From: an uncultured bacterium
Lineage (GTDB): Bacteria; Babelota; Babeliae; Babelales; Babelaceae
Reading direction: 5' to 3'
Assembly (NCBI GenBank): GCA_963713855.1
Contig: OY970209.1
Span: 416,001 to 480,000, forward strand
Length of the DNA: 64,000 nucleotides
Positions 934-62,098 of the stretch are shown here, piece after piece. The notes under the pieces are model-generated. The model made no database searches. It was not told the origin of the DNA and saw only the letters and a list, made by a program, of their open reading frames with translations. The position numbers and the translations under genes were made by a program. The stretch's first letter is position 1. Each line of letters opens with the position of its first letter.

Positions 934-2049
934 TTGCTTACCATGTTTAGCACTTATAAAAAAAACAGAAGGAGAGCGTCAAAGCTCTCCTTCTGTTTTT
1001 TGAGTATATGCGCTGGTTTTTCTCAACTATTTCCCGGCGATTTTGCTAGTGCATTGAGAAAAAAAATCAAAAGAGACCCTCCGCCCTGGATGAGTGCGCA
1101 AATAGATACCGATTTAAGGCACTATAAAACTGGTATTACAAGAGCCGATATAGATGCTACCAAGTCTTCAATTATGTCTTATGCTCGTTGCAAGATAGGA
1201 GATAAGGGGATAACGATAGAAAGCAATGCCAAAAACGGTATTTCGCGCAATCGGCTAGATTTATTAAAAAGGGTCTTGCATAAGCTTCATAGGGCAGTAA
1301 AGCTTCCCAAACTCGATTTTTTAGTTGATCTTTTTGATGCGAGCGGATGTAAGGTAAAAAGAGCACCCGTTTTTTGTATCAGCAAGCATACCGACGATAC
1401 GCATGTAGTTCTAATGCCAGATTTCATAAAGTTTATGTGGGCTTCTACCTATATAAGTGACGTTTATCGGGGCAATAAGAGCTTTTCTTGGCATAGTAAA
1501 AAGCCACAAGCCTTGTGGCGGGGTTCGACGACTGGAGCGTTGGTTGATCATACGGATTTTGAACGTTTAAATCGTTCTAAATTGGTAGCACTTTCTCTTG
1601 AACATCCTAACCAGCTTAATGCACGTTTTTCTACAGTAACAAGGAATGATCGAAGGCTTGAAAAAATACTTAGGCAAAGGGGCATGTATAGCGATCATCT
1701 TTCTATGGCAGATCATCTTAAATATAAATATATACTCGCAGTTGACGGTAATACGTGGGCAAGTTCATATTTTTGGCAACTTTTTGGCAATTCTCTCATC
1801 TTAAAACAAGCCTCACCTTTTTCAGAGTGGTACCACGCAGCACTTAAAGCCTATACGCACTACGTGCCCTTTAATCGTGACCTGTCTGATCTTATAGAAC
1901 GTATTTCTTGGGCAAAAAAGAATGATAGAAAAGTGCGAGAGATAGTAAGGCAGGCTAACAACTTTGCTCGCTCGTATCTTAAAGAAGTAGATCTCTATTA
2001 CTATTTCTATCTGGCTCTGCGTGAGTACGAAAAGTTGCAGCGTTTCTAG
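934..2049 (+). CDS. Glycosyltransferase family 90 (CAP10/POGLUT-like)
   Basis: Motifs WRGSTTG, KYKYILAVDGN, EWYHAALKAYTHYVP, WAKKND; basic then hydrophobic N-terminus; paralog of 19850-20992; exact start uncertain. Confidence 0.82.
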   Translation: MLTMFSTYKKNRRRASKLSFCFLSICAGFSQLFPGDFASALRKKIKRDPPPWMSAQIDTDLRHYKTGITRADIDATKSSIMSYARCKIGDKGITIESNAKNGISRNRLDLLKRVLHKLHRAVKLPKLDFLVDLFDASGCKVKRAPVFCISKHTDDTHVVLMPDFIKFMWASTYISDVYRGNKSFSWHSKKPQALWRGSTTGALVDHTDFERLNRSKLVALSLEHPNQLNARFSTVTRNDRRLEKILRQRGMYSDHLSMADHLKYKYILAVDGNTWASSYFWQLFGNSLILKQASPFSEWYHAALKAYTHYVPFNRDLSDLIERISWAKKNDRKVREIVRQANNFARSYLKEVDLYYYFYLALREYEKLQRF

Positions 2050-9367: not shown

Positions 9368-9503
9368 GCTTATTTTTTCTTCCATGAAAGATATACTCAA
9401 AAAGTGTATCATCAACATATGTAGTGTCACAAGAAAAAACTTGTGAGTATTTGCTTCCACTTGTTACTCTATAAATCGATAAAGAACATAAGGATTTTTT
9501 GTA

Positions 9504-19849: not shown

Positions 19850-20992
19850 ATGTATAAAAAGTTGTTAAGTGTGTTGCTATTTATTATAGTCATTTTACAG
19901 GTCGACGTGAGTTTTGGTCAATCCTCCTATAAGGAACGCTTGGTTGCTTTAGTAGAAGATAACCGAATACCTGTATGGATGTCCGAGCAGATTAAGAGCG
20001 ATCTAGAGCCTTTTAAAGCGAACCGTATACCGCTTGAGTCGATTTGCGAGACCTCCCCGAAGTGGCAGACCTCGGGTGTTGTTCGCTATACTATCAAAGA
20101 GGGAAAATTAACAATACATCCTTCTCCGCTTTGTTCAACTCTCAGTGTACTTGAATCGAGATGCAAGCAGTATAATGCTATTGTTAAAGCGTTAACCGAT
20201 ACAATACGCGTACCTGATGTTGAATTCACCGTATATCTGGGGGATGGGTTTATAGGCGGAAATTCACACACCCTGCCAGGGCCTATATTTGGTTTTTCGA
20301 AAGACAAAAATTTAGACACGAATGCTCTATTAGTTCCAGACTTTCATGCATTAGAGATCTATCCGCCGCTTATTGAGGATGTTGAAATAGGAAATAGGGC
20401 ATATCCTTGGCATGTCAAAGTCAATAAGGCCTTTTGGAGAGGAGCTAGCACCTGTAATTATCTCGACATAACTCTGAGTAATTATACCGCTTGCCCCAGG
20501 CTCAAATTAGTAGAAATAGCACGTATCAATTCTGATTTGATTGACGCTGGTTTAACCATGTGTGTACAAATGGATGAAGAGACCAGAAAGCTATTCTCAA
20601 ACTATCTCGTATCTTCAGTATCCGTGAGTGAGCACCTTAAATATAAGTACCTCATTTTAACAGATGGTAACGGAGCCGCTTATCCACGGGGGTTTTGGCA
20701 TTTATTTGGTAATTCTGTTGTTTTTAAGCAAAAGTCGGACAGTGTACAATGGTTCTATCGAGGCTTGAAACCATTTGTGCATTTTATTCCTTTTAATGAA
20801 GATTTTAGCGATTTAATTGAAAAGATACAATGGGCAACGAACCATGATGCAGAAACCCGTTTTATCGCAGCTCAAGGCCGCGCCTTTGCTCTAAACAATC
20901 TATGCTTAGAAAATAACTTGTTTTATTTGTATATCTTACTCAAGGAATTTTCTGCACTACAACAAGCCAGTAATTATAAGCAAGAGCTATAG
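19850..20992 (+). CDS. Glycosyltransferase family 90 (CAP10/POGLUT-like)
   Basis: FWRGAST, HLKYKYLILTDGN, QWFYRGLKPFVHFIP; signal peptide. Confidence 0.85.
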   Translation: MYKKLLSVLLFIIVILQVDVSFGQSSYKERLVALVEDNRIPVWMSEQIKSDLEPFKANRIPLESICETSPKWQTSGVVRYTIKEGKLTIHPSPLCSTLSVLESRCKQYNAIVKALTDTIRVPDVEFTVYLGDGFIGGNSHTLPGPIFGFSKDKNLDTNALLVPDFHALEIYPPLIEDVEIGNRAYPWHVKVNKAFWRGASTCNYLDITLSNYTACPRLKLVEIARINSDLIDAGLTMCVQMDEETRKLFSNYLVSSVSVSEHLKYKYLILTDGNGAAYPRGFWHLFGNSVVFKQKSDSVQWFYRGLKPFVHFIPFNEDFSDLIEKIQWATNHDAETRFIAAQGRAFALNNLCLENNLFYLYILLKEFSALQQASNYKQEL

Positions 20993-21002
20993 ACTCGAAG
21001 TT

Positions 21003-21725
21003 TTATCGTTTTATTATTATGCAGAGGCTAGGGTAAAAATGGATAGATTCTATGTGTTCTTGGTGGTAATTTAAACTACGATTCACTTCTTCTGGCCATT
21101 TTGTTTTATCAGCCGATCCACATCGGGCGCAGCCATAATTAAGATCATCAATGAGGTTCTGAAAAAATCGTATAGCGGACGCGGCCCCTGCTTTTGGATT
21201 GCTAGTACTTCCCTCAGAACCGAAATCCTTCCAGTAGGACGTATGCAAGTCCTCTACGACATACACACCTCCACTTTTTAAAAAAGGGAATAGGGTTTGA
21301 AAACTTAAAATTTGTGCCCCCATAAAATGACAACCGTCGTCAATAATAATGTCAAATTCGCCACCTGATTGAGCGGCGACTTCGAGTAACTCTGCTTTAT
21401 CGTGCTGATTAGCTTTATGGAGTTTGCATTTAGATGTAAGACCCTGCAAATGTTCCCAGCATTTATCATTGATATCCATAAAGTGTAACTCTTGCGCATG
21501 GGGAAAATAATCTTGCCACATACGGGCTGAGGCACCTTGCCAAAATCCTATCTCTAATAATTTTATTGGTTTATCTTTAAAACGGCTAAAATAGCTATCA
21601 TATATGAGTGTGTAACGATGAAAAAGAGGACCTTTATCCGAACCATAGCGATCAGCTAAATCATCGAGTTCACACGCTTGCATTGATGTTATAAAAAAGA
21701 GAGAGAATAGTGATATAATTTTCAT
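21003..21725 (-). CDS. SAM-dependent (sugar O-)methyltransferase
   Basis: GSDK, LLEIG, FDIIIDDGCH, GGVYVVEDLHTSYW; signal peptide ending MQA. Confidence 0.88.
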   Translation of the reverse strand: MKIISLFSLFFITSMQACELDDLADRYGSDKGPLFHRYTLIYDSYFSRFKDKPIKLLEIGFWQGASARMWQDYFPHAQELHFMDINDKCWEHLQGLTSKCKLHKANQHDKAELLEVAAQSGGEFDIIIDDGCHFMGAQILSFQTLFPFLKSGGVYVVEDLHTSYWKDFGSEGSTSNPKAGAASAIRFFQNLIDDLNYGCARCGSADKTKWPEEVNRSLNYHQEHIESIHFYPSLCIIIKR

Positions 21726-21737
21726 TGCATTTTCATT

Positions 21738-22451
21738 TCAATCTTGCGTTGAACAGGTATCACCGGTACATAGTATAGGTTTTTCGATCCACCAAAAACG
21801 GGGCTGCAGTGGATGAACATTAACCTTTAAGTTATTTTCAGCGCAAAATTGATTTATTGCTTGTGGAACTCCTGGCCACACTGTAGCATAATCATCGCCT
21901 GCAATAATTCCTCCACCACGGATTTTAGGATACCATGCTCTTAAATCAGCAATCACATATCCATAATTATGATTGGCGTCAATGAAAACGAAGTCAAGTT
22001 CTCGCTCTTTAAAGTGATCGACAGCGTTTAGCGAGGTATCCCTTAATAATTCAAATCGCGAGCCAAACAGCGAAAATTGAAGCTTTACTCTCCAGTAAAG
22101 AATATCAAAGTACTTTTGAGGTAATGGTGTGGTAGCCGGATCTTGGTAGTCGATAAAAGGGTCTATGCCATATAACTTGTCCACTTTGGTATGCTCGAGC
22201 AAATATTTACAATGAGCCCCGGTTAAAATACCTACTTCACAGCCAATGCTCAGGCCTAACCGATTGATAAGATCTGCAAAAAGACTGTGGTAGGGCTCTT
22301 CATGATCAATCTGTTCAATAACTTTTAGTGCTTGTATGATTTCTGATTCTGAAAATCCTGTAATTTGTGCATAATCGGTTACAGCAAGCTTACCTGGTAA
22401 AAGGTGGCAAAAACTTAATCCCAAGACAAATAATATTTTTCTGGCTAACAT
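21738..22451 (-). CDS. Class I SAM methyltransferase (Methyltransf_24-like)
   Basis: CEVG, LDFVFIDANHNY, GGIIAGDDY; start moved to MLARK (AGGAG RBS), hydrophobic N-terminus. Confidence 0.88.
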   Translation of the reverse strand: MLARKILFVLGLSFCHLLPGKLAVTDYAQITGFSESEIIQALKVIEQIDHEEPYHSLFADLINRLGLSIGCEVGILTGAHCKYLLEHTKVDKLYGIDPFIDYQDPATTPLPQKYFDILYWRVKLQFSLFGSRFELLRDTSLNAVDHFKERELDFVFIDANHNYGYVIADLRAWYPKIRGGGIIAGDDYATVWPGVPQAINQFCAENNLKVNVHPLQPRFWWIEKPILCTGDTCSTQD

Positions 22452-22488
22452 GTCTCTCCTTTTTTTGAGCATCTTCATAGGTAACTCA

Positions 22489-23772
22489 TTAAGCTCGATT
22501 TTTAAAGGCTGAAGATAACTTATTGAAAAACTTTTTTGATTTCGTGATAAGACCCTTATCCGTAATAGCATTCTTATTACCAAGTGTAAAGCGGCTAGGT
22601 TTTATAAGATTAATAAATTTTTGCTTTATTGCACCATCACTGTAGCGTAAAACCCATCTTCTTCTCTGTGGAGCTTGCGATAAGTAATGCCCATAGTTAT
22701 CATATACGCGTCGCAAAGCTTTCTTGGCATCACGTATATGGGCATTGAAATTGTTACCAGAATAAGTATTAAAAAATGGATGGTACATCTTTTCAATCAA
22801 GGGAGCAGGAACGCACGCAGCAAGACCCGATGAGCAGATAGTTGAATGAGCGGTATGATCACTTAAAACAACCGGTATGCCAAGAGCAAAAGCTTCACGT
22901 GGTAAGATGGAAAATCCTTCGCCTTTGGAAAAACTAGCAACAACATCGATAGATTTTAAAAGGTCTATGTATTCAGCCTCACTCAGGCTTTTAAAAATGC
23001 ACTTTACATTAGTAAGCTTTAAACGATTGATTAATTCTTGGATTTTTTTTACCGTTTCGCGCTCCTGGGGATGCCCTGTGACACGACCGTGCATTATGAG
23101 TCTTACACCGGGGTTATTGCTAAACTCTTCAGCAAATGCTTTAAGAAGAAGCAGATGATTTTTTCGTTCATAAAAACCTGCAGATAAGCCGAAGGTAAAA
23201 GGAGTATGCGCTCTTTTTTTTAAAGGCTGCTCAAGCAGTTTTTGAAGATAAAGACCGCAGGGTAAAACAAATATCGGGATTTCTACGCCCGCTTTTTCAA
23301 AGACTGAAACGAGGAATTTATCAGGTACTACTAATGCATCGAATTTATTATTAATAATGCTTACCCATGAAGGGGGCGGTGCGTCTGTTTCTATCATTAA
23401 GTAAGCAATCTTAATTTTAGAAGAGGATAGAGCATCTTCCGGCTTTTCAGCAAGTCCAAGTAAATCGATGAAAAAAGCAACTCTGCCGGGCCTTTCAGGT
23501 CTGCTTACTATTTCCTGAACTGCGGGAGAGACGTTTTGGAGATCGATTGCTTGAGGATTAGTCGCTTTAAAATTTATTTTCAAGTCCTTGTATAAATGAT
23601 CCATTACCCAAATAGGTATTCGATATAGTCCGTCACAATACTTCAGTTTTCCGACTATCGTTACGTCATAATCAAACGGTTTACGTTTAGGTAAAGTTTT
23701 TCTGGGTTTAGAAGTCGAACCCAGGCTTACCTTACCGAGTATCAGAATGAAAACGAAGAGCTTAAAATTCAT
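22489..23772 (-). CDS. GT-B glycosyltransferase (GT4-like)
   Basis: ERKN, KGEGFSILPREAFALGIP; signal-like N-terminus; paralog of 59560 and 62099. Confidence 0.88.
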   Translation of the reverse strand: MNFKLFVFILILGKVSLGSTSKPRKTLPKRKPFDYDVTIVGKLKYCDGLYRIPIWVMDHLYKDLKINFKATNPQAIDLQNVSPAVQEIVSRPERPGRVAFFIDLLGLAEKPEDALSSSKIKIAYLMIETDAPPPSWVSIINNKFDALVVPDKFLVSVFEKAGVEIPIFVLPCGLYLQKLLEQPLKKRAHTPFTFGLSAGFYERKNHLLLLKAFAEEFSNNPGVRLIMHGRVTGHPQERETVKKIQELINRLKLTNVKCIFKSLSEAEYIDLLKSIDVVASFSKGEGFSILPREAFALGIPVVLSDHTAHSTICSSGLAACVPAPLIEKMYHPFFNTYSGNNFNAHIRDAKKALRRVYDNYGHYLSQAPQRRRWVLRYSDGAIKQKFINLIKPSRFTLGNKNAITDKGLITKSKKFFNKLSSAFKNRA

Positions 23773-23787
23773 GTTTTTAAGGTGCCT

Positions 23788-25344
23788 TCATGTTTTTCTT
23801 AGTATTGGGTTCTTAAAAAATAAGCCTACTTTTTTAGGGCTATAGATTGTGCTAGCCCATGCTTGAGTAAATTGACCTATGGATGCAAAATTGAGTTTAT
23901 TAAGAGTCTCTAAGACATAATTAGTTTTATAGAGTATTGAACCTAGTTTATTTGGTTGTGGCCAGATGTGCTTGCCATGGTGCAACTGCCATGCCATTGT
24001 GTCGTTGCCTAAGAAGGCAGCATTTTTATCAAGAACAGTACTTGCTGGTTGACTCAGGTGTAGGTAAAAGCCTAGAGCAAATGTTTTCTCTAGTTGCTTA
24101 ATGCATTCGTTAAGATTGAGCGCATGTGTATTAATGTAGCTATCTGTCGACAATACCACATGTTTTCTAGCAGCTTTGAGTATTTTTCGTAACGAGTTTT
24201 TTAGTGCATCTCTATTAGCGGAGTGGTTACGTGTAAAATTAACTTTTGAAAAATCCTTACGCATTCCCGCATACCGTTTAGCAACAGAATTTTTAGAACA
24301 CTCATAGAGAACGTGTATTTTTCCTACGCCACGTACATTCTTTTGCACTGCTTTTAGACATTTACTAAGTGCTTGGGGATTATTATGAGATAGTAAAATA
24401 ACATCAGCTCTTGCGTGATCAAATTGCTTGCTTATTCCAACGGGTAATTGTGCTAATGGCTGGTATTTTTCCCATGTTCTTACAAGTTGATTTATGTTCC
24501 ATTGCGCTCCTCGGTTTTCATCTTTTCCGTTGCCTTGGTTTTGTTGGCTTAATGGGTTTTGCCAGTTCCAACGATAGAGAATCTTATCTATAAACTTGCT
24601 GTGATGACTGACCATCTCCAAAATAGGGTACATAAAACAAGAATCTGCTGATGGCGATAATGGCTTAAAACTGCCCTCATAAAGTAGATCTTCGAGTTTA
24701 ATCTTTTTAAATATACATGCGTAAAATGAACGAGGATGAAACCAATCCCAAACATAGGGCACAGCTGGATCCCAATGATCTTGTCTATAGCTATGCGCTT
24801 TTATGACAGCATCGGGTATTGCTACAAAAGGCTTTTCCCAAGGCCCTGGAGGAACATGGGGTTCAAATGACATTAAGCCATAGGTCATCCATATGCCAGG
24901 TGTTTTGTAAGCATCGTTAATCGTCGCAAATACAGTATCTTCAGAAAAGTAATCATCACCATCGATATTCAATAAAATTTCATCATCATTGCATAGATGT
25001 GCTGCGCGATAATGATTGGCCAGCTGGCTTTGCCATTCTTCGTTTCTTACAAGAGTGCATTTATGCTCTAATTTATGTTCTTTAAAATACTCTTCAACTA
25101 AATTGGGAGTATTATCCGTAGAAGCATCATCTACGTAAATGAGGCGATAGTTGTGATATTTTTGAGAAAAGATAGAATCAAGGTTTCGTCGGTACCATCG
25201 GGCATTGTTATATGAAGTGACAACGACAGCAATAGGATGCTCTTGAGGATTTTGCTTAGCAGCTAATTTGTTATCTAAACTAAAAAAACATGCAGATAAA
25301 AAGAGAAAAATACTATTGATTTGAAGCTTTGTCTTACTCGTCAT
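23788..25344 (-). CDS. GT2 glycosyltransferase with a second, degenerate C-terminal domain
   Basis: VVVTSYNNA, YVDDASTD, IDGDD; N-terminal hydrophobic segment. Confidence 0.88.
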   Translation of the reverse strand: MTSKTKLQINSIFLFLSACFFSLDNKLAAKQNPQEHPIAVVVTSYNNARWYRRNLDSIFSQKYHNYRLIYVDDASTDNTPNLVEEYFKEHKLEHKCTLVRNEEWQSQLANHYRAAHLCNDDEILLNIDGDDYFSEDTVFATINDAYKTPGIWMTYGLMSFEPHVPPGPWEKPFVAIPDAVIKAHSYRQDHWDPAVPYVWDWFHPRSFYACIFKKIKLEDLLYEGSFKPLSPSADSCFMYPILEMVSHHSKFIDKILYRWNWQNPLSQQNQGNGKDENRGAQWNINQLVRTWEKYQPLAQLPVGISKQFDHARADVILLSHNNPQALSKCLKAVQKNVRGVGKIHVLYECSKNSVAKRYAGMRKDFSKVNFTRNHSANRDALKNSLRKILKAARKHVVLSTDSYINTHALNLNECIKQLEKTFALGFYLHLSQPASTVLDKNAAFLGNDTMAWQLHHGKHIWPQPNKLGSILYKTNYVLETLNKLNFASIGQFTQAWASTIYSPKKVGLFFKNPILRKT

Positions 25345-25641
25345 TAGTTCCCTATCGTGCATATACGCCTTAAGACTTTTAAAACTTGGATGACTATAAT
25401 TTACCTGGATAATTATAATATACCTGGAATCTACAGCGCAAGATTGTTCTTAAGTCGGTACTTCTATTCCCTCCAATGAAGAGGGGGATGGTAAGATATC
25501 TAATTGAGGTAATGGTCGAATGAAAATTGAGGATTACGGTGTAAAGTTCTTGATAGGTACAAAATCGTAGTATGTTGAAACTTTTAATCATTCATGCTAA
25601 GAATCTAATGACAATGCTTTTGCGTAGGTGGAAGGAAGATA

Positions 25642-27336
25642 ATGGCATTTATAAAACGAGCTTTTCTTTTATTTGTTATTGGTATACAAAGTTTTTTTTT
25701 AGAAGCCATCAGTATCGAACCTTCCATTAATACGTTAATACCAGAAAAACCATTGGTTGTGGTTATTACTTCCTATAATAATGCTCAATGGTTCGCTAAG
25801 AACTTGGAATCAGTTTTAACGCAAAATTATAAAAATTATAGAGTTATCTATATCGACGATGGTTCGCCGGATGGAACTGCTCAACTTGTAGATGGTTATA
25901 TCAAGGAACATAAGGAGGAACACCGTTTTCTTCTCATTAAAAATAGCCAAAATATTGGACAAATGGCCAATCACTATAAAGCAGTTTGCTACTGTGCTGA
26001 TGATGAGATCGTTGTTCACTTGGATGGTGATGATTTTCTTATCGATAAAAATGTCTTAAAAGTTGTCAACACTATATACAGCACTCATGATGCCTGGCTT
26101 ACTTATGGTCAAGCAAGTCTGTGGCCCTTACTAGAAGAAGTATGGCCTGCTACTGAGGTAGACGTCAAAATAGAGGAAGCTATCGCAAGCAATAAATTTA
26201 GAAAAGAATGGATGTATGGACACTTAAGGACTTTTAAGGCAGCTCTTTTTAAACAGATAAAACTACAAGACTTAATCCATAAGAACAGCTTTAAAACTAT
26301 GTCTCCAGCTCCAGATGTAGCATTTATGTATCCTATGCTTGAGATGGCTGGCACACATGGATATTACGTTAAAACCCCTTTGTACTTATGGAATCGTAGT
26401 AATCCTAACAGTCAGCATAATCTTAATTTGGCTGCCGTTTTTGATCTTTTGTATACCATTCAAGCATGGGAGCCCTATCAGCGCCTTGTCACGCTAAAAC
26501 CTTCTTTTAATAGTAGTAAAAACCAGCTTAAAGCGGATGTTTTCCTCTTTGCTCATGAAATTACCAGTGGCAATCCTGCTTTAGCGAGTTTAAAATTAAA
26601 GGCAAATGACCTTGGCAAAATAACACTGTTTTATGATAAAGCTAAACCTCAGCAAATCGTTGATATGAAGAAAAAGCATCCCAAGGTAGCTTTGATACCT
26701 TTTGCTGACAAGTCATTAAAAACTTTCCAGACATGCCTTCTGAATACCCCGAGTGATCACCTTATTCTTATGAAGGATAACGTGTCTCTAAAAAACAGTA
26801 CGGATATGAAAAAAGCGATTTGTTCACTTGAGACGACCTTTGCGCAAGGGTTTTACTTTGACATAGATGGCGCTTATTTAGAGGCAAGGAGTTTTTCTTA
26901 TGTCGAGCCATTTGATCATTTAATTGGTTGGCAGCCAGAAACGAACCCATTAAATGCGAACGATTTAAATATGATCATGTATCGAAAGCGAGATATTCAA
27001 CAGCAAGTAGCATTAATGCATGGGCAACAAAAGCCATTCTCATATTTTGTTCTACCATTTCAACCTAGACAGCTGCTTGTTGGATGGAAAAATAGTCCTA
27101 TAAAGGTCGTTAAAACCGAAGTTAACAATAACAGGAAGGCAGTTAAGAGTAAAACTCCTAATAAAAAAATAGAAAAGCCCAAAAATAAGAAGAAAATGGT
27201 TGAGAGTAAACTACCCGGCAAGAAAATAGAAAAGAACAAAAGCGATAATAAGGACGCGGTAAAGAATAAAGCCGCTAAGAAGAAGGCAGCAAAGAACAAA
27301 AGCGATAACAAAAAATTGAAAAGGGGTAATAGATGA
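25642..27336 (+). CDS. GT2 glycosyltransferase with a Lys-rich C-terminal tail
   Basis: VVITSYNNA, YIDDGSPD, LDGDD, HLRTF; signal peptide; paralog of the divergently transcribed neighbour. Confidence 0.88.
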   Translation: MAFIKRAFLLFVIGIQSFFLEAISIEPSINTLIPEKPLVVVITSYNNAQWFAKNLESVLTQNYKNYRVIYIDDGSPDGTAQLVDGYIKEHKEEHRFLLIKNSQNIGQMANHYKAVCYCADDEIVVHLDGDDFLIDKNVLKVVNTIYSTHDAWLTYGQASLWPLLEEVWPATEVDVKIEEAIASNKFRKEWMYGHLRTFKAALFKQIKLQDLIHKNSFKTMSPAPDVAFMYPMLEMAGTHGYYVKTPLYLWNRSNPNSQHNLNLAAVFDLLYTIQAWEPYQRLVTLKPSFNSSKNQLKADVFLFAHEITSGNPALASLKLKANDLGKITLFYDKAKPQQIVDMKKKHPKVALIPFADKSLKTFQTCLLNTPSDHLILMKDNVSLKNSTDMKKAICSLETTFAQGFYFDIDGAYLEARSFSYVEPFDHLIGWQPETNPLNANDLNMIMYRKRDIQQQVALMHGQQKPFSYFVLPFQPRQLLVGWKNSPIKVVKTEVNNNRKAVKSKTPNKKIEKPKNKKKMVESKLPGKKIEKNKSDNKDAVKNKAAKKKAAKNKSDNKKLKRGNR

Positions 27337-28184
27337 TAAAAAGGTTGTTTTTGTTGATGCTTATGATGTTTTTATCTGCTACTATAGAGCAGTCCCTGAT
27401 TGCCAAAAATAACAAGTCAACGTCCCAGGCCAAGATACTGTATCTTGATCTAATCAAGAAGTCTTTGATTAACCATATTTACCAAGATGCCGGCTTAGAT
27501 TATGCTCACGGTGAAGTAAAACCCTATGATTCAGCAGTCAGAGAACAAGGAAAAGATTGGCCAGTTCGTGCTCATACCATGATTGGCTTGAAGCGCTTGG
27601 ACAATCTGCAGGCCTGTATTGAAAGTGTTTTGAAAAATAATGTTCCGGGGGACCTTATAGAAACGGGGGTATGGCGTGGAGGGGCGACTATTTTAATGCG
27701 AGCTGTTCTTAAAGCTTATGGTGTTACTAATCGTAACGTATGGGTTGCTGATTCTTTTCAAGGCTTGCCAAAACCCGATACTGAAAAATATCCTGAGGAC
27801 TCTTTTCTTGCTCAAAACAATATCCAAGATATTAAAGAACTTGCTGTTGGCTTAGAAGAGGTAAAATCTAACTTTAGAAAATATGACCTTTTGGATGGTC
27901 GCGTAAAGTTTTTAAAAGGATGGTTTAAAGACACTTTACCATCGGCACCTATAAAGAAATTGGCTGTACTTCGCCTCGATGGAGATCTCTATGAATCTAC
28001 CATACTGGCTCTTAGGCACTTGTATCCCAAGCTGTCTATTGGAGGATACGTTATTATAGATGATTACAATGGCCTAGATGATGCATGTAAAAAAGCAGTA
28101 AACTATTATCGTAAAAAGCATCACATTACTGAACCAATTATCAAGATTGACAGTGAAGGGATCTTCTGGCAAAAGAAAAAATAG
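27333..28184 (+). CDS. TylF/MycF/NovP-family sugar O-methyltransferase
   Basis: AHTMIGLKRLDNL, PGDLIETGVWRGG, ADSFQGLP, GWFKDTLP, LRLDGDLYEST, IIDDY; signal peptide. Confidence 0.95.
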   Translation: MIKRLFLLMLMMFLSATIEQSLIAKNNKSTSQAKILYLDLIKKSLINHIYQDAGLDYAHGEVKPYDSAVREQGKDWPVRAHTMIGLKRLDNLQACIESVLKNNVPGDLIETGVWRGGATILMRAVLKAYGVTNRNVWVADSFQGLPKPDTEKYPEDSFLAQNNIQDIKELAVGLEEVKSNFRKYDLLDGRVKFLKGWFKDTLPSAPIKKLAVLRLDGDLYESTILALRHLYPKLSIGGYVIIDDYNGLDDACKKAVNYYRKKHHITEPIIKIDSEGIFWQKKK

Positions 28185-28241
28185 TTGATTGACACAAAAC
28201 GTATATATACTTGTTGTGATTCTCAATAAAAAGAGGCAGTA

Positions 28242-29231
28242 ATGAAATCAATAAGGTCTTATTTTACGAGGATTATTGGAGCACTCCTTATAAGTTTTAC
28301 CTTACAAGTAAGGTGTGCTCAAGCGCCCACGTTCCTCGTGTTTGGGGGAAAAAGTGGTTGGATTGGGCAAAAGATAGTCAAATTACTTGAAGAACAGGGC
28401 CATAAGGTAGCTGTTGCACAGTCACGTCTTGAAAATCGACAAGATGTCGAAAAAGAGATTGAAACGGTACAACCAAAGTACGTTATTAACGCAGCGGGCC
28501 TCACTGGTAGGCCAAATATAGACTGGTGTGAAGACAACCAACCAGCAACTATTAGAGCAAATATTATAGGAGCATTAACTCTTGTTGATGTTTGTTTTTT
28601 GCGAGGTATCCATGTTACGAACTTTGGTACTGGTTGCATTTACGAATACGATAAGGATCACGCCCTTAACAGTGGCATCGGTTTTAAAGAAGAAGACACT
28701 CCTAATTTTACGGGTTCTTTTTATTCAAAAACGAAAGTTATGCTTGATGAACTCTTCAAATCGTATAATAACGTTTTAAATTTAAGATTACGTATGCCTA
28801 TTTCTGATGATTTACATGGGCGTAGTTTTATAACTAAAATTGTACATTACGATAAGGTAATTGACGTTCCTAATTCGATGAGCGTGCTTTCTGATCTTTT
28901 ACCCATTGCAATAAAGATGACGGTAAAAGAATTAAAAGGTAACTACAATTTTGTAAATCCGGGAGCTATATCGCATTCGGAGATATTAGATCTCTACAAA
29001 ATTTTTATAGATCCAAGTTTTACTTATAAAATCTTTACTGTTGCTGAACAGGACACCATCCTTAAAGCCCGTCGCTCTAATAACGAGCTTGATGTAAGTA
29101 AGCTTCTTAAAGAATTTCCCGAGATACCACCCATTAAAGATTCTATAAAGGAGATGTTTAAAAGAATGAAAAACAGCAAAACGACATTAGATGAGCTTCT
29201 TAAAAACGATTATCACATAATTGGCACCTAA
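28242..29231 (+). CDS. Eukaryote-type bifunctional NDP-4-keto-6-deoxyglucose 3,5-epimerase/4-reductase (NRS/ER, UER1-like)
   Basis: GWIG, NAAGLTGRPNIDWCE, TGCIYEYD, SGIGFKEEDTPNFTGSFYSKTK, LRLRMPIS, RSNNELD motifs of plant NRS/ER; extra signal peptide. Confidence 0.9.
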   Translation: MKSIRSYFTRIIGALLISFTLQVRCAQAPTFLVFGGKSGWIGQKIVKLLEEQGHKVAVAQSRLENRQDVEKEIETVQPKYVINAAGLTGRPNIDWCEDNQPATIRANIIGALTLVDVCFLRGIHVTNFGTGCIYEYDKDHALNSGIGFKEEDTPNFTGSFYSKTKVMLDELFKSYNNVLNLRLRMPISDDLHGRSFITKIVHYDKVIDVPNSMSVLSDLLPIAIKMTVKELKGNYNFVNPGAISHSEILDLYKIFIDPSFTYKIFTVAEQDTILKARRSNNELDVSKLLKEFPEIPPIKDSIKEMFKRMKNSKTTLDELLKNDYHIIGT

Positions 29232-29254
29232 AAGTATTGCAGTGAAGGTAACTA

Positions 29255-30427
29255 ATGAAGCGCTTTAATTTCTTTTTTATAATGAGCACCGTACAACTAT
29301 TTTCATGGGCAGCGATCAACAATGCTTATGAATGTTCTCTTAATGGGCAAGTTGGACTTGCTGACTTAGAAATGGTATCTACTGGAAATGCTACCAATCA
29401 TAAAACAGTTCTCATAACTGGTGGCGCAGGGTTTATTGGAAGCAATTTCCTGCGCTATATGTTTGACAAATATCCAAGCTACCATTTTATAGTCCTAGAC
29501 TTGCTCACGTATGCTGGATCTCTCGACAACATACCGGACTATATTAAGTTTTCTAAGCGCTTTGAATTTAGCTATGGCTCAGTGACCAATATTCCCCTTG
29601 TTGATTCTCTCATGCAAAAAGCCGATTATGTGGTACATTTTGCCGCTGAAACACATGTTACTCGTAGTATAGCCGACGACGCTGTGTTCTTTGAATCTGA
29701 TGTACTTGGGTCGCGCGTTCTTATGTCGAATCTTGTTAAACATGCTCATAAGGTAGAACGGTATATCCATATATCGACCTCAGAGGTATATGGCACTGCT
29801 CTAGTAGAACCTATGACCGAAGAACATCCTTTAAATCCTCGTTCTTCTTATGCTGCTGCAAAGGCTGGTGGCGATAGGCTTGTGCATGCTTATTGGTGTA
29901 CCTATGATATTCCGGCAGTTATTGTAAGACCCTTTAACAATTATGGGCCTCAGCAGCATCCTGAAAAAATGATGGCGCGCTTTATTACCAGCGCTATTAG
30001 AGAGCAGCCATTAACCATTCATGGGACGGGGCTGCAAGCACGTGATTGGCTACACACCAATGATACCTGCGCTGCTTTAGATGCTGTCTTACACGCCAAA
30101 GATTTTTCTAAAATAAAAAATCAAGTGATCAATCTTGGTACCGGTAAAGCGGCATCTGTTTTGGCTATTGCCAAAATGATTCTTAGCTTTTTTAATAAGT
30201 CTGAGGAGTTAATTAGCCACATATTAGATCGTCCAGGTCAGGTAGTAAATCACATTTCGTCAATCGAAAAAGCAAAGAAACTATTGGACTGGCAAGCAAA
30301 TGTGCAACTGGAAGAAGGCTTAAAAGAAGTGTGTGAGTGGTATGTTAATAATGTCGATCATTGGAAAAAAGCTGAGTTTATGAAGCGCATACCTTTACGC
30401 TTTAATAGCACTTTAGTTATCCAATAA
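29255..30427 (+). CDS. NDP-glucose 4,6-dehydratase (RmlB-like SDR)
   Basis: TGGAGFIGSNF, DLLTYAG, HFAAETHV, STSEVYG, YAAAK, NNYGPQQHPEK; ~50-aa N-terminal extension. Confidence 0.9.
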   Translation: MKRFNFFFIMSTVQLFSWAAINNAYECSLNGQVGLADLEMVSTGNATNHKTVLITGGAGFIGSNFLRYMFDKYPSYHFIVLDLLTYAGSLDNIPDYIKFSKRFEFSYGSVTNIPLVDSLMQKADYVVHFAAETHVTRSIADDAVFFESDVLGSRVLMSNLVKHAHKVERYIHISTSEVYGTALVEPMTEEHPLNPRSSYAAAKAGGDRLVHAYWCTYDIPAVIVRPFNNYGPQQHPEKMMARFITSAIREQPLTIHGTGLQARDWLHTNDTCAALDAVLHAKDFSKIKNQVINLGTGKAASVLAIAKMILSFFNKSEELISHILDRPGQVVNHISSIEKAKKLLDWQANVQLEEGLKEVCEWYVNNVDHWKKAEFMKRIPLRFNSTLVIQ

Positions 30428-58321: not shown

Positions 58322-59464
58322 TTAAGAATTTAAATCTCTCGACGGGTTGTTCGCCTCTTTAAGTTGTGCCTTATCGGCATCGACCATGAGTTGGATGAGC
58401 TTTTCAAACGAGACTTTGGGCCTCCAGCGCAATTTTTTAAATGCTTTTGAAGGTTTTGCCTTGCGTGTGTAATCGGTTGGTCTAAAAAATGCTGGGTCTA
58501 TCTTTATAAGTGTTGTGCCGGTTGCGGGATCTATGCCTATTTCATCTACTCCTTTATTTTTCCAAAGCACATTAATGCCGATGTGTTTGAATGCTTTCTC
58601 GATAAATTCGCGCACCGTATGCATTTTTCCAGTAGCTATTATGTAGTCATCGGCTTCTGGTTGTTGAAGACATCGCCACATTGCTTCAACGTAATCTTCT
58701 ACATACCCCCAATCGCGAGCGGCATCAAGGTTTCCGACGGAGAGTATCTCTTTTGCGCCAAGTGCTTTTTTAGCCACGGCTTTGCTAATTTTTCGAGTTA
58801 TAAAATGTTCTTCGCGAAGCGGTGATTCGTGGTTAAAGAGAATCGCATTACAAGCATAGAGCTTATAGGATTTTCTATACAGTTCTATCATCTGATGGGC
58901 GGAGAGTTTTGATATACCGTAAGGGGAGGTTGGTCCATATGCCGACTGTTCATGTTTACTGGTTTTGTAAGGCTTTCCAAAAATCTCTCCCGTTGATGCC
59001 TGGCATATACGTATAGGTTTACCGCGCAGAGCTTCGAGGAGAACTACAACATTTAAGCTGTTTGCTTCAAACGTTTCTAAGGGTTTTTTAAAGGACACTG
59101 AAACACTGCTTTGCGCAGCAAGGTTGTATACCTCATCCGGTTTTATGTCTTCAATAAGGCTTTTGACGTACGTCGCATCATTTAAAGCCCCGTAGTGGAT
59201 AAAAAGACGCTTTTTTGACTCAGGATGTGTCTTGTAAATGGTATCGATTGCAGCTTTTTGCGAAGAGGGTCGTACGCTTCCATGGACTTCATATCCCTTA
59301 TCCATGAGCATCTTAAGAAGATATGAGCCGTCTTGACCATTAGCTCCCAACACGAGAGCTTTTTTAAGCCGTGCTTGGATCGCTTTAGGTTCGTTAGCCC
59401 ATACCGTATTAAATAAAGCATACGTAGCGATGAGTATTAACGACGTCGGTACAGTCTTTGTCAA
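58322..59464 (-). CDS. GDP-mannose 4,6-dehydratase-like SDR with N-terminal signal-like peptide
   Basis: KALVLGANGQDGSYL, YNLAAQSSV, QASTGE, SPYGISK, LFNHESP, FITRKI, GNLDAARDWG; start uncertain (TTG 59464 proposed). Confidence 0.88.
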   Translation of the reverse strand: MTKTVPTSLILIATYALFNTVWANEPKAIQARLKKALVLGANGQDGSYLLKMLMDKGYEVHGSVRPSSQKAAIDTIYKTHPESKKRLFIHYGALNDATYVKSLIEDIKPDEVYNLAAQSSVSVSFKKPLETFEANSLNVVVLLEALRGKPIRICQASTGEIFGKPYKTSKHEQSAYGPTSPYGISKLSAHQMIELYRKSYKLYACNAILFNHESPLREEHFITRKISKAVAKKALGAKEILSVGNLDAARDWGYVEDYVEAMWRCLQQPEADDYIIATGKMHTVREFIEKAFKHIGINVLWKNKGVDEIGIDPATGTTLIKIDPAFFRPTDYTRKAKPSKAFKKLRWRPKVSFEKLIQLMVDADKAQLKEANNPSRDLNS

Positions 59465-59559
59465 GCTAAAGCCCTTCTCGTATGTATTGGCTTGTTTATT
59501 AGATAAGTTATAATGCATGCAAGTCCATAAAATCGGATGATCAAGCATGTACTAATGGT

Positions 59560-60858
59560 TCAATTGCCATTATGCTCCTTGCCGTTATTTACTACAAGAT
59601 CAGGGTAGAGTGAAATATAAAGGTTTAAAAGCCTTCTATCTGTTGTAGTCATTAAACTCTCTCCGATTGTGTTTGTTGCTCCCATTTCAATATGCGAAGG
59701 CCGAATAAGTGTGTAAAAGAGAGGCGCCAAAGACGAGCGTAAAAATTGACGTGCCCATGTTCTTCCATTCAATGCCTTATTTTTATAAAAACGATAATCC
59801 TTATACATCTCGCGTAGGGCTTTGGCTAAATCATCTACAGTGCAGGTATGAAAATGTCCGCACATTTCATTGAATTCCTTAAAACGCGCTTTTACAAGCT
59901 TGTTTGCAGGGACCTTCAGAACGCCTGGAGCTTGTGTAATGCTTTTATGGACCGTGTGGTCCGTGACAATGCACGGTATTCCCGCCGCAAGGGCTTCTCT
60001 AGGCGTTAATGAATAGCCTTCGCCGGCTGAAGGCCAAACATAGGCGTCAAGTGAAGCGATAAATTCGATGTAGTCATCCCGTTTTAAAGTCTCGGCGTTA
60101 ATATAAACGTTTTTCAGTTTCAATTGGTTAATAATTTTGGTAATTTTAGGCTTGTCGGCTCCCCAGCTGCCATGTATTTTGAGCATGACGTTAGGGTTGT
60201 TCTTAAACGCTTGAGCGAAAGCGTGTAAAAGTACCTCGTAATTTTTTCGTTCGCTAAAGCCTGCTGAAATGCCAAAAATAAACGGATTTTTTGGCATTTC
60301 TCTCGTTTGGCGAGCTAAAAGCTTTTCTAGATAAATGGGCAAAGGAATGCAGAAGATAGGCCTTGTTACCCCAGATTCTTGGTAAATACCTATAAGTGCA
60401 GGGTCAGGCACTACTATAGCATCAAACGATTCATTGATAGCTTGTACCCACATGCGTGGCAGCTTTGTGGCTTCAAACATTGAGTAGGCGATTTTTATGT
60501 GCGATGAAGGTGTTTTGCGGTAAAAGGGTCTATTTTTATAGCCGATCACATCAGTAAACAGCGAAACTGGTCCAAGGATTCGACTATCAAGAGATATTGA
60601 TGATAGTTTGAAGGGTATATCCTCTTTAAACATTCCTTGTACCGGGCTTGGAAGAGCAGTGCGCGATCGAACGACGTTAACGGAGAAACGATCTTTTAAG
60701 ATATCGGTAATAATGGTAGAAACAAGCGGCGCGGTAGTTTCAGTGCCAATAAGCCCTACCACATTTACGTCATGCGTAACGCGTTTTTTGCGGCGCTTGC
60801 TCCCTTCAAGATTTACCGTTGCTATAAGAAGAGCGATTAAGCAAAACAGATAGTTCAT
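59560..60858 (-). CDS. GT-B glycosyltransferase (GT4-like)
   Basis: YSMFEAT, ERKN, GEGYSLTPREALAAGIP; signal peptide. Confidence 0.88.
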   Translation of the reverse strand: MNYLFCLIALLIATVNLEGSKRRKKRVTHDVNVVGLIGTETTAPLVSTIITDILKDRFSVNVVRSRTALPSPVQGMFKEDIPFKLSSISLDSRILGPVSLFTDVIGYKNRPFYRKTPSSHIKIAYSMFEATKLPRMWVQAINESFDAIVVPDPALIGIYQESGVTRPIFCIPLPIYLEKLLARQTREMPKNPFIFGISAGFSERKNYEVLLHAFAQAFKNNPNVMLKIHGSWGADKPKITKIINQLKLKNVYINAETLKRDDYIEFIASLDAYVWPSAGEGYSLTPREALAAGIPCIVTDHTVHKSITQAPGVLKVPANKLVKARFKEFNEMCGHFHTCTVDDLAKALREMYKDYRFYKNKALNGRTWARQFLRSSLAPLFYTLIRPSHIEMGATNTIGESLMTTTDRRLLNLYISLYPDLVVNNGKEHNGN

Positions 60859-60867
60859 AGTGTTCCC

Positions 60868-62055
60868 TTATGATCGAATAGCAGCTACCGCTTGAGAGTC
60901 TAAAGTTTGATATGGTTTTCTGGAGCATATGAATCGTAACTTCTGACGTATGGCCTTGAGACCAATCGTATTAGTCGTTATAAGCGGATTACTCCAGTTA
61001 TAGACGTAAAGTGGTTTTTTGATATAGCGATAGTGTTTGTATCCCGTCATCTCAATCATAGGCAACATATAAGCGACATCTTCAGCATATTGAAATGGAC
61101 GTCCATTTTTGTCAAGCAAATCGGCTCTGCTAATTTTTCTAAAAAGTCCTGCAAAAAATGAGCGTAAATGATGTATTGTCCAGTAGAGCTTTTTTCTGCA
61201 CTCTGATCTAATTTTTCCCTGCTCCTTGAAGTAGTTTTTATTAATAGGCCGACAAAAAGCTGGTTGGGTTAAGCTCGGGTAAGTAATTGATTGACCGTAT
61301 GTCAGCAATAGAGAAGGGGTGCGATTATATATTTTATTGAGAAACGTTAACACTTGGTCATCGTAAAGCCAATCATCACCGTCCAATGTGACGAGGATAG
61401 TATTGTCAGGACAAAAACGTTCAACCGCGTAGAGGTAATTTCCTAGGCAATATTTCTTTTCGGTATTCTGTATAAAAATCCATCGCTCAAAATTATCCGC
61501 ATTTCGCTTAACAAGATTCTTTGCAAGATTAAAAGTATTGTCTTTTGAAAGATCGTCCATGTAGATAGCCGTGTAGTGAGGATATTTTTGATTTAAAACT
61601 GATTCGATGTTCTTTTTATACCAACGAGCGTTGTTATAACTCGCGATTAAAATAGTAAAGTGCTGATTTTTTTCAGGATTTCTTTCGCGAGCTCTCGTCA
61701 TTTGGTGACCTAAAAGTGACGTTGCTTGACGCATATTTTTAAGGCGAGAAAGACTTAAAGGCGTATGATCAAGGGCATCAACTTTCGTGAGCGGAGCATT
61801 TTTGTTAATAAGGTATAAAGCAGCGGGTTCTTGATTTTCATAAAGCGCGTGATGTAAGGCGGTTCTTCCTTGTAAATCGCACTCTTTAATGGCATTTTTG
61901 TTTAACGCAAGTATTTCTTGCATCGCTTTAACGTCGCCAATGCTTGCCGCTTTCATAAGAGGTGTCATTTTTGCCGATTGTGCTTGTATATTTTGACAAT
62001 GCGCGAACGCAAGTATGATTGGGAGTGTAATACGTATGTGAAAGTATAACCTCAT
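60868..62055 (-). CDS. Ankyrin-repeat / GT2 glycosyltransferase fusion with signal peptide
   Basis: Start moved to MRLYF; TPLMKAA, GRTALHHA, HTPLSLS ankyrin motifs followed by ILIASYNNA, MDDLSKD, LDGDD, HLRSF. Confidence 0.88.
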   Translation of the reverse strand: MRLYFHIRITLPIILAFAHCQNIQAQSAKMTPLMKAASIGDVKAMQEILALNKNAIKECDLQGRTALHHALYENQEPAALYLINKNAPLTKVDALDHTPLSLSRLKNMRQATSLLGHQMTRARERNPEKNQHFTILIASYNNARWYKKNIESVLNQKYPHYTAIYMDDLSKDNTFNLAKNLVKRNADNFERWIFIQNTEKKYCLGNYLYAVERFCPDNTILVTLDGDDWLYDDQVLTFLNKIYNRTPSLLLTYGQSITYPSLTQPAFCRPINKNYFKEQGKIRSECRKKLYWTIHHLRSFFAGLFRKISRADLLDKNGRPFQYAEDVAYMLPMIEMTGYKHYRYIKKPLYVYNWSNPLITTNTIGLKAIRQKLRFICSRKPYQTLDSQAVAAIRS

Positions 62056-62098
62056 ACAGCATCCTTCTACAGCAAGCCGGCTGTGCTCCTTGCTATTC

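What the first reader, a model, noticed from the sequence alone, without database searches (positions are those of the whole stretch)
19850..30427. Glycosylation cluster in which every enzyme, including nucleotide-sugar synthesis enzymes and SAM methyltransferases, has a signal-like N-terminus
Seen: all nine genes (GT90, two methyltransferases, GT4-like, two GT2, TylF, NRS/ER, 4,6-dehydratase) begin with a basic-then-hydrophobic extension before the catalytic fold, e.g. MKSIRSYFTRIIGALLISFTLQVRCA and MIKRLFLLMLMMFLSA. No wzx/wzy, wzm/wzt or initiating phosphoglycosyltransferase gene is visible in the window. Established: these families use NDP-sugars, NAD(P)H and SAM, which are cytosolic, and bacterial homologs normally lack signal peptides. 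Inference: a complete pathway for a (methyl-)rhamnose-containing glycan may be exported to work in host cytoplasm or at the inclusion surface on host metabolites, conceptually like giant-virus glycosylation. Membrane tethering on the cytoplasmic side is the alternative.
Basis: partly seen in the sequence, partly recalled or inferred. Interest (0 to 1): 0.85.

Follow-up and report, generated by a model that had tools for sequence, protein, structure and literature searches.

The report
Exported rhamnose-glycan pathway with cofactor supply
In a small bacterium that likely lives inside protists, all nine enzymes of a sugar-chain gene cluster, and separate copies of the enzymes predicted to supply their cofactors, carry secretion-type leaders, so the sugar coat is likely built outside the bacterial cytoplasm from host supplies, though export has not been measured.

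Summary
Observation confirmed; two starts need refining (22451; probably 25344). The genome looks like Babelota (Dependentiae). About 46% of its proteins have such leaders by my rough rule, so leaders alone are not surprising; the chemistry is.

The rhamnose synthase NRS/ER has a leader in 43 of 45 GTDB loci (Babelota and environmental Chlamydiae), 0 of 80 viral and 0 of 72 eukaryote-like homologs; the leader-bearing bacterial enzymes form one clade. The leaders look like cleavable Sec peptides, not cytoplasmic tethers.

Added here: cofactor enzymes come as one plain plus one leader-bearing copy (G6PD in 5 of 5 multi-copy genomes; NDK in all 5 pairs read in full); the only NAD kinase, PGM/PMM and ManC also carry leaders; no SAM synthetase was found.

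Best reading: a Sec-exported pathway working in the periplasm or vacuole lumen on host metabolites, building a methylated rhamnose-type coat.

Against: no standard predictor, no export data; a WecA-like initiator exists elsewhere in the genome; the dehydratase lacks RmlB's catalytic Asp. This scan reported the leader pattern before on other Dependentiae and chlamydial DNA; my literature searches found no description.

The parts
19850..20992 (+). GT90 glycosyltransferase with N-terminal leader; closest solved relatives are ER-luminal protein O-glucosyltransferases (POGLUT2, POGLUT1, Rumi)
   Evidence: Pfam PF05686 E 2e-37, residues 46-374; PDB 9w47 E 1e-30; leader score 4.0
21003..21725 (-). 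SAM methyltransferase (Methyltransf_24) with leader
   Evidence: PF13578 E 4e-8; leader 2.6; homologs beside NRS/ER in other genomes also carry leaders
21738..22451 (-). SAM methyltransferase (Methyltransf_24) with leader; start corrected to 22451
   Evidence: PF13578 E 3e-14; ribosome-binding site and leader
22489..23772 (-). GT4 glycosyltransferase with leader; one of six close leader-bearing paralogs in the genome; the one leader of the nine with a basic stretch after the hydrophobic core
   Evidence: PF00534 E 2e-13; paralogs; anatomy
23788..25344 (-). GT2 glycosyltransferase with leader, followed by a second, degenerate GT-A-like domain (start 25344, or 25362)
   Evidence: PF00535 E 5e-18; C-terminal half matches stand-alone leader-bearing proteins of relatives, E 8e-16, and lacks their DD motif
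25642..27336 (+). GT2 glycosyltransferase with leader and a lysine-rich C-terminal tail
   Evidence: PF00535 E 1e-19; 29 K/R in the last 70 residues
27333..28184 (+). TylF/NovP-type sugar O-methyltransferase with leader
   Evidence: PF05711 E 9e-99; NovP 2wk1 E 2e-87, MycF 4x7u E 3e-81; found in 5 of 61 genomes, leaders visible on the relatives' copies
28242..29231 (+). Eukaryote-type NDP-4-keto-6-deoxyglucose 3,5-epimerase/4-reductase (NRS/ER) with leader
   Evidence: PDB 4qqr E 1e-107, mimivirus L780 7jid E 1e-63; leader conserved; tree
29255..30427 (+). RmlB-like NDP-sugar 4,6-dehydratase with leader; S-T-S-E in place of T-D-E
   Evidence: TIGR01181 302 bits, under the 365 cut-off; alignment to 6bi4; motif shared by homologs
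58322..63367 (-). Second leader-bearing glycosylation cluster: GMD-like, GT4, ankyrin-GT2 fusion, GT4; continues beyond the window with GMD, more GT4s, methyl- and sulfotransferases
   Evidence: the GMD-like leader does not pass my rule from the called start
943..2049 (+). Second GT90 with leader

Best explanation
The nine genes encode a sugar-chain pathway whose enzymes carry Sec-type leaders and are likely exported from the bacterial cytoplasm into the periplasm or the lumen of the host vacuole, where they would use host-derived nucleotide sugars, SAM and NAD(P) to build a probably O-methylated, rhamnose-type glycan on the bacterium's own surface. Shown: leaders, families, conservation, SecY/SecDF/YidC/signal peptidase I, two sets of type II secretion parts, no TatC, MetK or LpxC hit, and paired plain/leader-bearing G6PD, NDK and thioredoxin reductase. 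Inferred: (1) Sec export of unfolded chains, cleavage, and cofactor loading outside; (2) dehydratase then NRS/ER turn an NDP-hexose into NDP-L-rhamnose or an analogue, consuming NADPH that the leader-bearing G6PD and NAD kinase regenerate; (3) GT2, GT4 and GT90 transfer sugars and three methyltransferases cap them; (4) the acceptor is a surface protein or a WecA-primed lipid, giving a coat in place of LPS. I put about 0.8 on 'works outside the cytoplasm' and 0.55 on this whole reading.
For: NRS/ER leader in 102 of 116 close homologs by rule, 111 with an extension of 15 or more residues (4 long duplicated-domain hits of 120 dropped); 43 of 45 GTDB loci, 39 by rule and 4 by eye; 0 of 80 viral loci and 0 of 72 eukaryote-like proteins. 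Leaders diverge (31% identity) while cores keep 70%; n-region positive in 94%, downstream flank more positive than the n-region in 4%, signal-peptidase-like site in 93 of 98, lipobox 2, twin-arginine 0; same anatomy as the genome's ankyrin and propeller leaders. Machinery. G6PD: exactly one leader-bearing copy in each of 5 genomes with two or more intact copies. NDK: 8 leader-bearing copies, all in two-copy genomes, none in 19 single-copy genomes read. Sole NAD kinase, PGM/PMM, ManC, IlvE and isopentenyl-phosphate kinase carry leaders. No MetK, no LpxC. 114 of 142 ORFs around NRS/ER in nine relatives pass the rule. Precedent for secreted housekeeping enzymes using host UDP-glucose in a vacuole: PMC4829429, PMC9251005.
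Against: No export, cleavage or glycan has been measured, and no standard predictor was run. Nearly half of this proteome has leaders (44% in C. destructans). A conventional leaderless set exists too: GalU, GlmU, GalE, a second epimerase, three GT4, one GT2 and a WecA-like initiator, and two relatives have a Wzx or Wzx-like gene near the cluster. How UDP-glucose, SAM and NADP reach the compartment is unknown; the only UDP-glucose pyrophosphorylase found has no leader. Leader-bearing G6PD is rare (6 of 37 ORFs read), and genomes such as G011 and G020 have NRS/ER but no G6PD hit, so in-house NADPH supply is not general. The dehydratase lacks the RmlB Asp. The genome is 91% complete, so absences are not proven.
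Confidence: 0.55

Rival explanations
1. The enzymes pass through Sec and then type II secretion into the host cytosol, where they glycosylate host molecules or decorate the bacterium from outside, as giant viruses do in their factories.
For: Same leader class as the ankyrin proteins thought to reach amoebal cytoplasm (PMC4378268 passages); an ankyrin-GT2 fusion with leader; two secretins, two E ATPases, two F proteins; substrates are abundant in host cytosol; mimivirus uses the same two-enzyme rhamnose route (PMC9614988 passages); C. destructans replicates in host cytoplasm.
Against: Leader-bearing G6PD, NAD kinase, NDK and PGM/PMM would be redundant in host cytosol; two thioredoxin reductase-thioredoxin fusions and several NDK copies have long anchor-like N-termini that would hold them on the bacterial membrane; B. 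massiliensis grows in a vacuole; NRS/ER is redundant if the protist host has its own.
Confidence: 0.25
2. The leaders are uncleaved anchors or targeting tags that hold the enzymes on the cytoplasmic face of the inner membrane, or on internal membranes of the replication body, where they use the bacterium's own pools.
For: It removes the cofactor problem; leaderless GalU and a WecA-like initiator exist; UppS has an anchor-like N-terminus in 17 of 30 loci read and is normally cytoplasmic; the GT4 leader has a basic downstream flank; internal membranes appear during B. massiliensis development.
Against: Uncharged stretches of the nine leaders are 9-16 residues, too short for a span; charge bias predicts N-in/C-out; cleavage-like sites in 93 of 98 NRS/ER homologs; anatomy matches presumed secreted proteins; a tether would not explain plain plus tagged copies of G6PD and NDK.
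Confidence: 0.13
3. The extensions are not translated or have no function (start mis-calls, or relics in a genome that tags most accessory genes).
For: High genome-wide rate; two of nine genes have a usable downstream ATG.
Against: NRS/ER has no in-frame start between the leader and its first Rossmann strand; leader properties are kept across two phyla while their sequence diverges; cytosolic genes lack them.
Confidence: 0.05

Closest known systems
Chlamydia trachomatis glycogen enzymes in the inclusion lumen (PMC4829429, abstract and section 8 read; PMC9251005, abstract read)
   Same: Housekeeping sugar enzymes, including a phosphoglucomutase, gained a secretion signal and work in a vacuole on host UDP-glucose.
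   Different: Those use type III signals and, per the paper, have no Sec peptide; the product is storage glycogen; the nucleotide-sugar-making GlgC was not a secretion substrate. Here the leaders are Sec-type and cover NAD(P)H- and SAM-dependent enzymes and their cofactor supply.
Giant-virus glycosylation clusters, mimivirus R141 + L780 UDP-rhamnose route (PMC9614988, passages read)
   Same: Two-enzyme rhamnose route (4,6-dehydratase + bifunctional epimerase/reductase), clustered with variable GTs and sugar methyltransferases, for a coat on an intracellular parasite of protists.
   Different: Viral enzymes are made in host cytosol and have no leader (0 of 80); the bacterial NRS/ER is closer to eukaryote-like sequences than to most viral ones.
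Signal-peptide-rich secretome of Babelota (PMC6561590, PMC4378268, PMC4776705; passages read)
   Same: 44% of C. destructans proteins have signal sequences; Sec plus type II secretion, two gspD copies, no LPS in Babeliales; this genome matches.
   Different: The passages describe ankyrins, proteases, nucleases and hydrolases; term searches gave no 'glycosyl' hit about glycosyltransferases, and no 'rhamnose' hit in the two papers searched for it.
Bacterial rmlABCD O-antigen/capsule clusters (Wzx/Wzy or ABC-dependent; recalled)
   Same: RmlB-like dehydratase, GT2/GT4, sugar O-methyltransferases in one variable locus.
   Different: No RmlA, NRS/ER in place of RmlC+RmlD, no flippase or polymerase at the locus, all enzymes with leaders.
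Eukaryotic ER/Golgi lumen glycosylation (recalled, except the PDB matches)
   Same: Leloir GTs of luminal families (GT90; GT6, GT10, GT47, RXYLT1-like in relatives) acting outside the cytosol; luminal NADPH made by a signal-bearing G6PD relative (H6PD, recalled).
   Different: Eukaryotic NRS/ER has no leader (0 of 72); no nucleotide-sugar transporter was identified here.

Membership tests
Sec/SPase I substrate | Positive n-region, short hydrophobic core, small residues at -1/-3 | tested here: met
   By own rules: n-charge >=1 in 8 of 8 scored leaders of the nine and 94% of 98 NRS/ER homologs; cleavage-like site in 93 of 98. The dehydratase leader is under threshold.
Sec/SPase I substrate | Called by SignalP 6 or Phobius; cleaved and exported in vivo | not testable with these tools
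   No such predictor or proteomics available.
Sec/SPase I substrate | SecY and signal peptidase I in the genome | tested here: met
   SecY, SecD, YidC, SecF, PF10502.
Tat substrate | Twin-arginine motif and TatC | tested here: not met
   0 of 98 NRS/ER leaders; no PF00902 hit in a 91% complete genome.
Cytoplasm-facing membrane anchor | About 19-residue hydrophobic span with the more positive flank on the C-terminal side | tested here: not met
   0 of 8 scored leaders have an uncharged stretch of 19 or more; C-flank more positive than the n-region in 1 of 8 (GT4) and 4% of NRS/ER homologs.
NRS/ER (UER1, L780) epimerase/reductase | Full-length similarity with NADPH-binding glycine motif, catalytic Cys and YxxxK | tested here: met
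   4qqr E 1e-107 over residues 30-313; G-C and Y...K columns invariant in 20 sequences.
NRS/ER (UER1, L780) epimerase/reductase | Forms NDP-L-rhamnose | not testable with these tools
   Needs an enzyme assay.
RmlB dTDP-glucose 4,6-dehydratase | TIGR01181 above cut-off and the T-D-E / YxxxK catalytic set | tested here: not met
   302 bits against 365; S-T-S-E instead of S-T-D-E, Ser in all 19 of 30 homologs where the motif was read. It may still dehydrate with Glu alone, as GMD and LegB do (recalled).
TylF/NovP sugar O-methyltransferase | PF05711 above cut-off and full-length match to solved members | tested here: met
   330 bits against 23; NovP and MycF E < 1e-79.
Wzx/Wzy or ABC-dependent polysaccharide locus | Flippase/polymerase or Wzm/Wzt and an initiating transferase | tested here: not met
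   None in the window; no Wzx or Wzy family hit among 110 membrane proteins scanned and no PF02397. A WecA-like gene, MurJ, a MATE protein and six ABC-2 permeases lie elsewhere.
Babelota (Dependentiae) | Phylogenetic placement by marker genes | tested here: inconclusive
   Not placed by a marker tree. Inferred: order-level relatives share NRS/ER loci with records titled Babeliales/Dependentiae, named homologs, 1.52 Mb, two secretins, ATP/ADP translocases, about 49 ankyrin proteins, no LpxC.

The most novel reading that the evidence does not exclude
Babelota, and environmental Chlamydiae that share the genes, run a second metabolic compartment outside their cytoplasm, a bacterial 'Golgi lumen' in the periplasm or vacuole. 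It is stocked through Sec with nucleotide-sugar synthases, glycosyl-, methyl- and sulfotransferases and its own NADPH, NTP, sugar-phosphate and thiol-reducing enzymes, arose by repeated gain of signal peptides on duplicated housekeeping genes, and builds a variable coat that replaces LPS.
Probability: 0.35. Interest if true: 0.92.

Novelty: new variant of a known kind. Interest (0 to 1): 0.77.

Why it matters
Nucleotide-sugar interconversion, NADPH-dependent reduction and SAM-dependent methylation are taken to be cytoplasmic in bacteria (established knowledge). A whole pathway and its cofactor supply routed through Sec would break that rule and explain part of the unexplained 44-46% secretome of Babelota. 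It also suggests what covers LPS-less Babeliales, and shows two phyla of protist symbionts sharing a eukaryote-type enzyme after it gained a signal peptide. It is testable: the cultured Vermiphilus pyriformis carries the leader-bearing dehydratase + NRS/ER pair, and the plain/leader paralog pairs of NDK and G6PD give built-in controls.

Tried and rejected
Start mis-calls: rejected for NRS/ER and unlikely for the rest. Tat or lipoprotein route: rejected. 'No initiating transferase in the organism': rejected, WecA-like gene found. 'All housekeeping enzymes of the phylum are tagged': rejected; PGM-family leaders in only 2 of 30 loci, both in this genus, G6PD in 6 of 37. Direction of transfer between Babelota and Chlamydiae: the quick tree suggested nesting, but the AU test does not reject Babelota as one clade (p 0.525), so no donor is claimed. 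Two long-branch viral rows fell inside the bacterial clade in the quick tree; they and 42 other rows were left out of the careful tree (42 of 86 rows used). Heuristic false positives (GalE, GlmU, G6PD copy a, GT14, ThyA, RNase HII, LysRS) were set aside because the hydrophobic stretch is the domain's first strand or an over-long start. NRS/ER in PLSDB plasmids: no match at E 1e-20. A structure prediction of mature NRS/ER had not finished, so no model was used. No complex prediction was sent, as no binding is claimed. Literature searches found no paper on signal peptides of Babelota or chlamydial nucleotide-sugar enzymes; the library lacks most subscription papers and I read no supplements, where SignalP/Phobius tables for B. 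massiliensis and C. destructans may list such enzymes.


Full report
Observation. The nine ORFs between 19850 and 30427 are as described, and Pfam gives GT90, two Methyltransf_24, GT4, two GT2, TylF and two SDR sugar enzymes. Each starts with a short basic stretch and a hydrophobic core before the catalytic domain. The second methyltransferase starts at 22451 and the first GT2 probably at 25344. No SignalP-type tool was available, so I used my own rule: a 9-residue uncharged window with mean Kyte-Doolittle of at least 2.2 near the start, after a non-negative n-region. Eight of nine pass; the dehydratase scores 1.67. A start caller blind to leaders chose downstream ATGs for two genes; homologs with leaders and an overlapping stop/start argue for the upstream starts.

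Organism and baseline. The genome is one 1.52-Mb contig, 91% complete. Named NRS/ER homologs and titled GTDB loci point to Babeliales/Dependentiae; this placement is inferred, not made with a marker tree. The rule fires on 562 of 1,222 called proteins (46%) and on 1.4% of 3,855 internal control segments. C. destructans has 44% by Phobius (PMC6561590, passages). So leaders are common here. They are not universal: none of 18 cytosolic genes of the window has one, and GalU, GlmU, GalE, a second epimerase, three GT4 and one GT2 lack them.

The leaders are conserved and were gained in bacteria. Of 120 hits to NRS/ER, 4 long duplicated-domain proteins were dropped; 102 of the other 116 pass the rule and 111 have an extension of 15 or more residues. 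A GTDB scan gave 45 loci, mostly Babelota and environmental Chlamydiae; 39 pass, 4 more show a leader by eye, and the 2 without group with giant-virus sequences. None of 80 viral loci and none of 72 eukaryote-like proteins has a leader; the eukaryotic label is inferred from ~1-kb contigs and a few eukprot/MMETSP names. In a careful tree of 42 of the 86 rows, the 26 Babelota and chlamydial enzymes form one clade (99/98) whose nearest rows are eukaryote-like; the direction of transfer is unresolved (AU p 0.525). A 2011 survey found only four bacterial homologs of this domain (PMC3220709, passages).

Anatomy favours export. In 98 of 103 NRS/ER leaders scored, the n-region is positive in 94%, the downstream flank is the more positive side in 4%, a signal-peptidase-like site occurs in 93, a lipobox in 2 and a twin-arginine motif in 0. 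Leaders share 31% identity against 70% for the cores, and match the genome's ankyrin and propeller leaders. In the nine genes the uncharged stretch is 9-16 residues, short for a membrane span. The genome has SecY, SecD/F, YidC and signal peptidase I, two secretins, two E ATPases, two F proteins, BamA and OmpA, and no TatC hit.

The cluster is part of something larger. Pfam scans of 393 leader-candidate proteins (repeat proteins, short and very long proteins left out) and follow-up show leaders on a second glycan cluster at 58322-63367 and beyond (GMD, five more GT4, an ankyrin-GT2 fusion, methyl- and sulfotransferases), on ManC, two GT32, two GT28-like proteins, and on the only PGM/PMM, NAD kinase, IlvE and isopentenyl-phosphate kinase found. 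Three enzymes come as plain plus tagged copies: NDK, G6PD (the plain copy beside a gnd-like gene) and thioredoxin reductase. Relatives repeat this. All 5 genomes with two or more intact G6PD copies have exactly one tagged copy, and 2 single copies are tagged. All 8 tagged NDKs lie in two-copy genomes; in the 5 pairs read in full one copy is tagged; none of 19 single copies read is tagged (4 of 30 loci were missed by my motif). The PGM leader is confined to this genus, 2 of 30 loci. No MetK or LpxC hit was found. Around NRS/ER in nine relatives, 114 of 142 ORFs pass the rule, among them UDP-glucose dehydrogenases, PseB-like and UXS-like enzymes and GT10, GT32 and GT47 proteins. The cluster is patchy: NRS/ER has strong hits in 10 of 61 genomes and TylF in 5 of 61, and neither was found in the same-genus genome.

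Likely chemistry. NRS/ER matches Arabidopsis 4qqr (E 1e-107) and mimivirus L780 (E 1e-63) with catalytic columns intact; L780 needs NADPH (PMC9614988, passages). TylF matches NovP and MycF, sugar O-methyltransferases; GT90 matches ER-luminal POGLUT enzymes. The dehydratase is RmlB-like but under the family cut-off and has S-T-S-E for T-D-E, as do its homologs, so its substrate is open. No RmlA was found among three nucleotidyltransferase hits. An O-methylated rhamnose-type glycan is the best guess.

Where it works. I commit to the periplasm or vacuole lumen (0.55). Tagged G6PD, NAD kinase, NDK and PGM make sense only in a space cut off from both cytosols' enzymes; anchor-like thioredoxin reductases would stay on the bacterial membrane; B. 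massiliensis grows in a vacuole (PMC4378268, passages); Babeliales lack LPS and have a degenerate outer membrane (PMC4776705, passages). These steps are inference. Host cytosol through type II secretion remains a real rival (0.25), helped by the ankyrin-GT2 fusion. A cytoplasmic tether (0.13) and untranslated or idle leaders (0.05) fit worse.

Results against. Export is unmeasured. A WecA-like initiator, MurJ, a MATE protein and six ABC-2 permeases exist elsewhere in the genome, though no Wzx, Wzy or PF02397 hit; two relatives have Wzx or Wzx-like genes near the cluster. The sole GalU is leaderless. Some NRS/ER genomes have no G6PD hit. UppS carries an anchor-like N-terminus in 17 of 30 loci, of unclear orientation, which shows that some extensions may be tethers.

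Known and new. The closest tested precedent is C. trachomatis, whose glycogen enzymes and PGM enter the inclusion by type III secretion and use host UDP-glucose; that paper states they lack Sec peptides (PMC4829429, abstract and section 8; PMC9251005, abstract). Giant viruses use the same two-step rhamnose route without leaders. Six literature searches found no report of Sec-tagged nucleotide-sugar or cofactor enzymes in Babelota or Chlamydiae; supplements were not read. This scan noted the leader pattern before in at least eight findings on other genomes; those are AI notes, seen after most of my tests, and are not independent support.

Verdict. Real, conserved, probably exported; destination and product unproven. 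New variant of a known kind; interest 0.77.

Noticed in passing
window 60868-62055 (-): Leader + ankyrin repeats + GT2 domain in one protein: a candidate host-directed glycosyltransferase.
   Followed up: partly
window 58322-59518 (-) and G000:C1:479526-480704 (+): Two GMD-family genes; the window copy is under the GMD cut-off (382 against 415 bits) and no GDP-fucose synthase appeared among the SDR paralogs, so it may be a GDP-D-rhamnose-forming reductase (function is a guess).
   Followed up: partly
G000:C1:1044404-1045282 (+) and 781248-782045 (+): Isopentenyl-phosphate kinase with a leader and UppS with an anchor-like N-terminus (17 of 30 Babelota loci): polyprenyl carrier synthesis might occur on the outer face from host isoprenoids.
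   Followed up: partly
G000:C1:499880-501331 (-) and 1283902-1285359 (-): Two thioredoxin reductase-thioredoxin fusions with N-terminal anchors, besides a plain thioredoxin reductase at 1318738.
   Followed up: partly
G000:C1:979276-980754 (-); L301: The only PGM/PMM-family gene has a leader in both genomes of this genus and no separate GlmM was found, leaving leaderless GalU and GlmU without an obvious cytosolic sugar-1-phosphate source.
   Followed up: partly
G000:C1:835097-836215, 369375-370184, 492420-493163, 716643, 817818, 1500901: Leaders on IlvE, two sulfotransferases and three GNAT acetyltransferases, which need PLP, PAPS or acetyl-CoA.
   Followed up: no
window 23788-25344 and 25642-27336: Both GT2 proteins carry a second GT-A-like domain; in the first it lacks the DD motif of stand-alone homologs; the second ends in a lysine-rich tail.
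   Followed up: partly
L020, L026, L027, L158, L176, L177: Some NRS/ER copies sit beside a leader-bearing PseB-like UDP-GlcNAc dehydratase instead of the RmlB-like one, suggesting an N-acetylated product.
   Followed up: no
L180, L181: Two GTDB records labelled as bacteria hold leaderless NRS/ER genes that group with giant-virus sequences; probably misbinned viral contigs.
   Followed up: partly
window 7160-9385 (-): D-Ala-D-Ala ligase with two tandem ligase units in one ORF.
   Followed up: no
window 19850-30427: Cluster G+C is 38.1% against 41.4% for the genome, in keeping with a mobile, patchy locus.
   Followed up: no
window, tRNA-Gly near 4384-4459 and tmRNA near 31048-31423: The cluster ends just before a Ham1 gene, tmRNA and smpB; no integration site was sought.
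   Followed up: no
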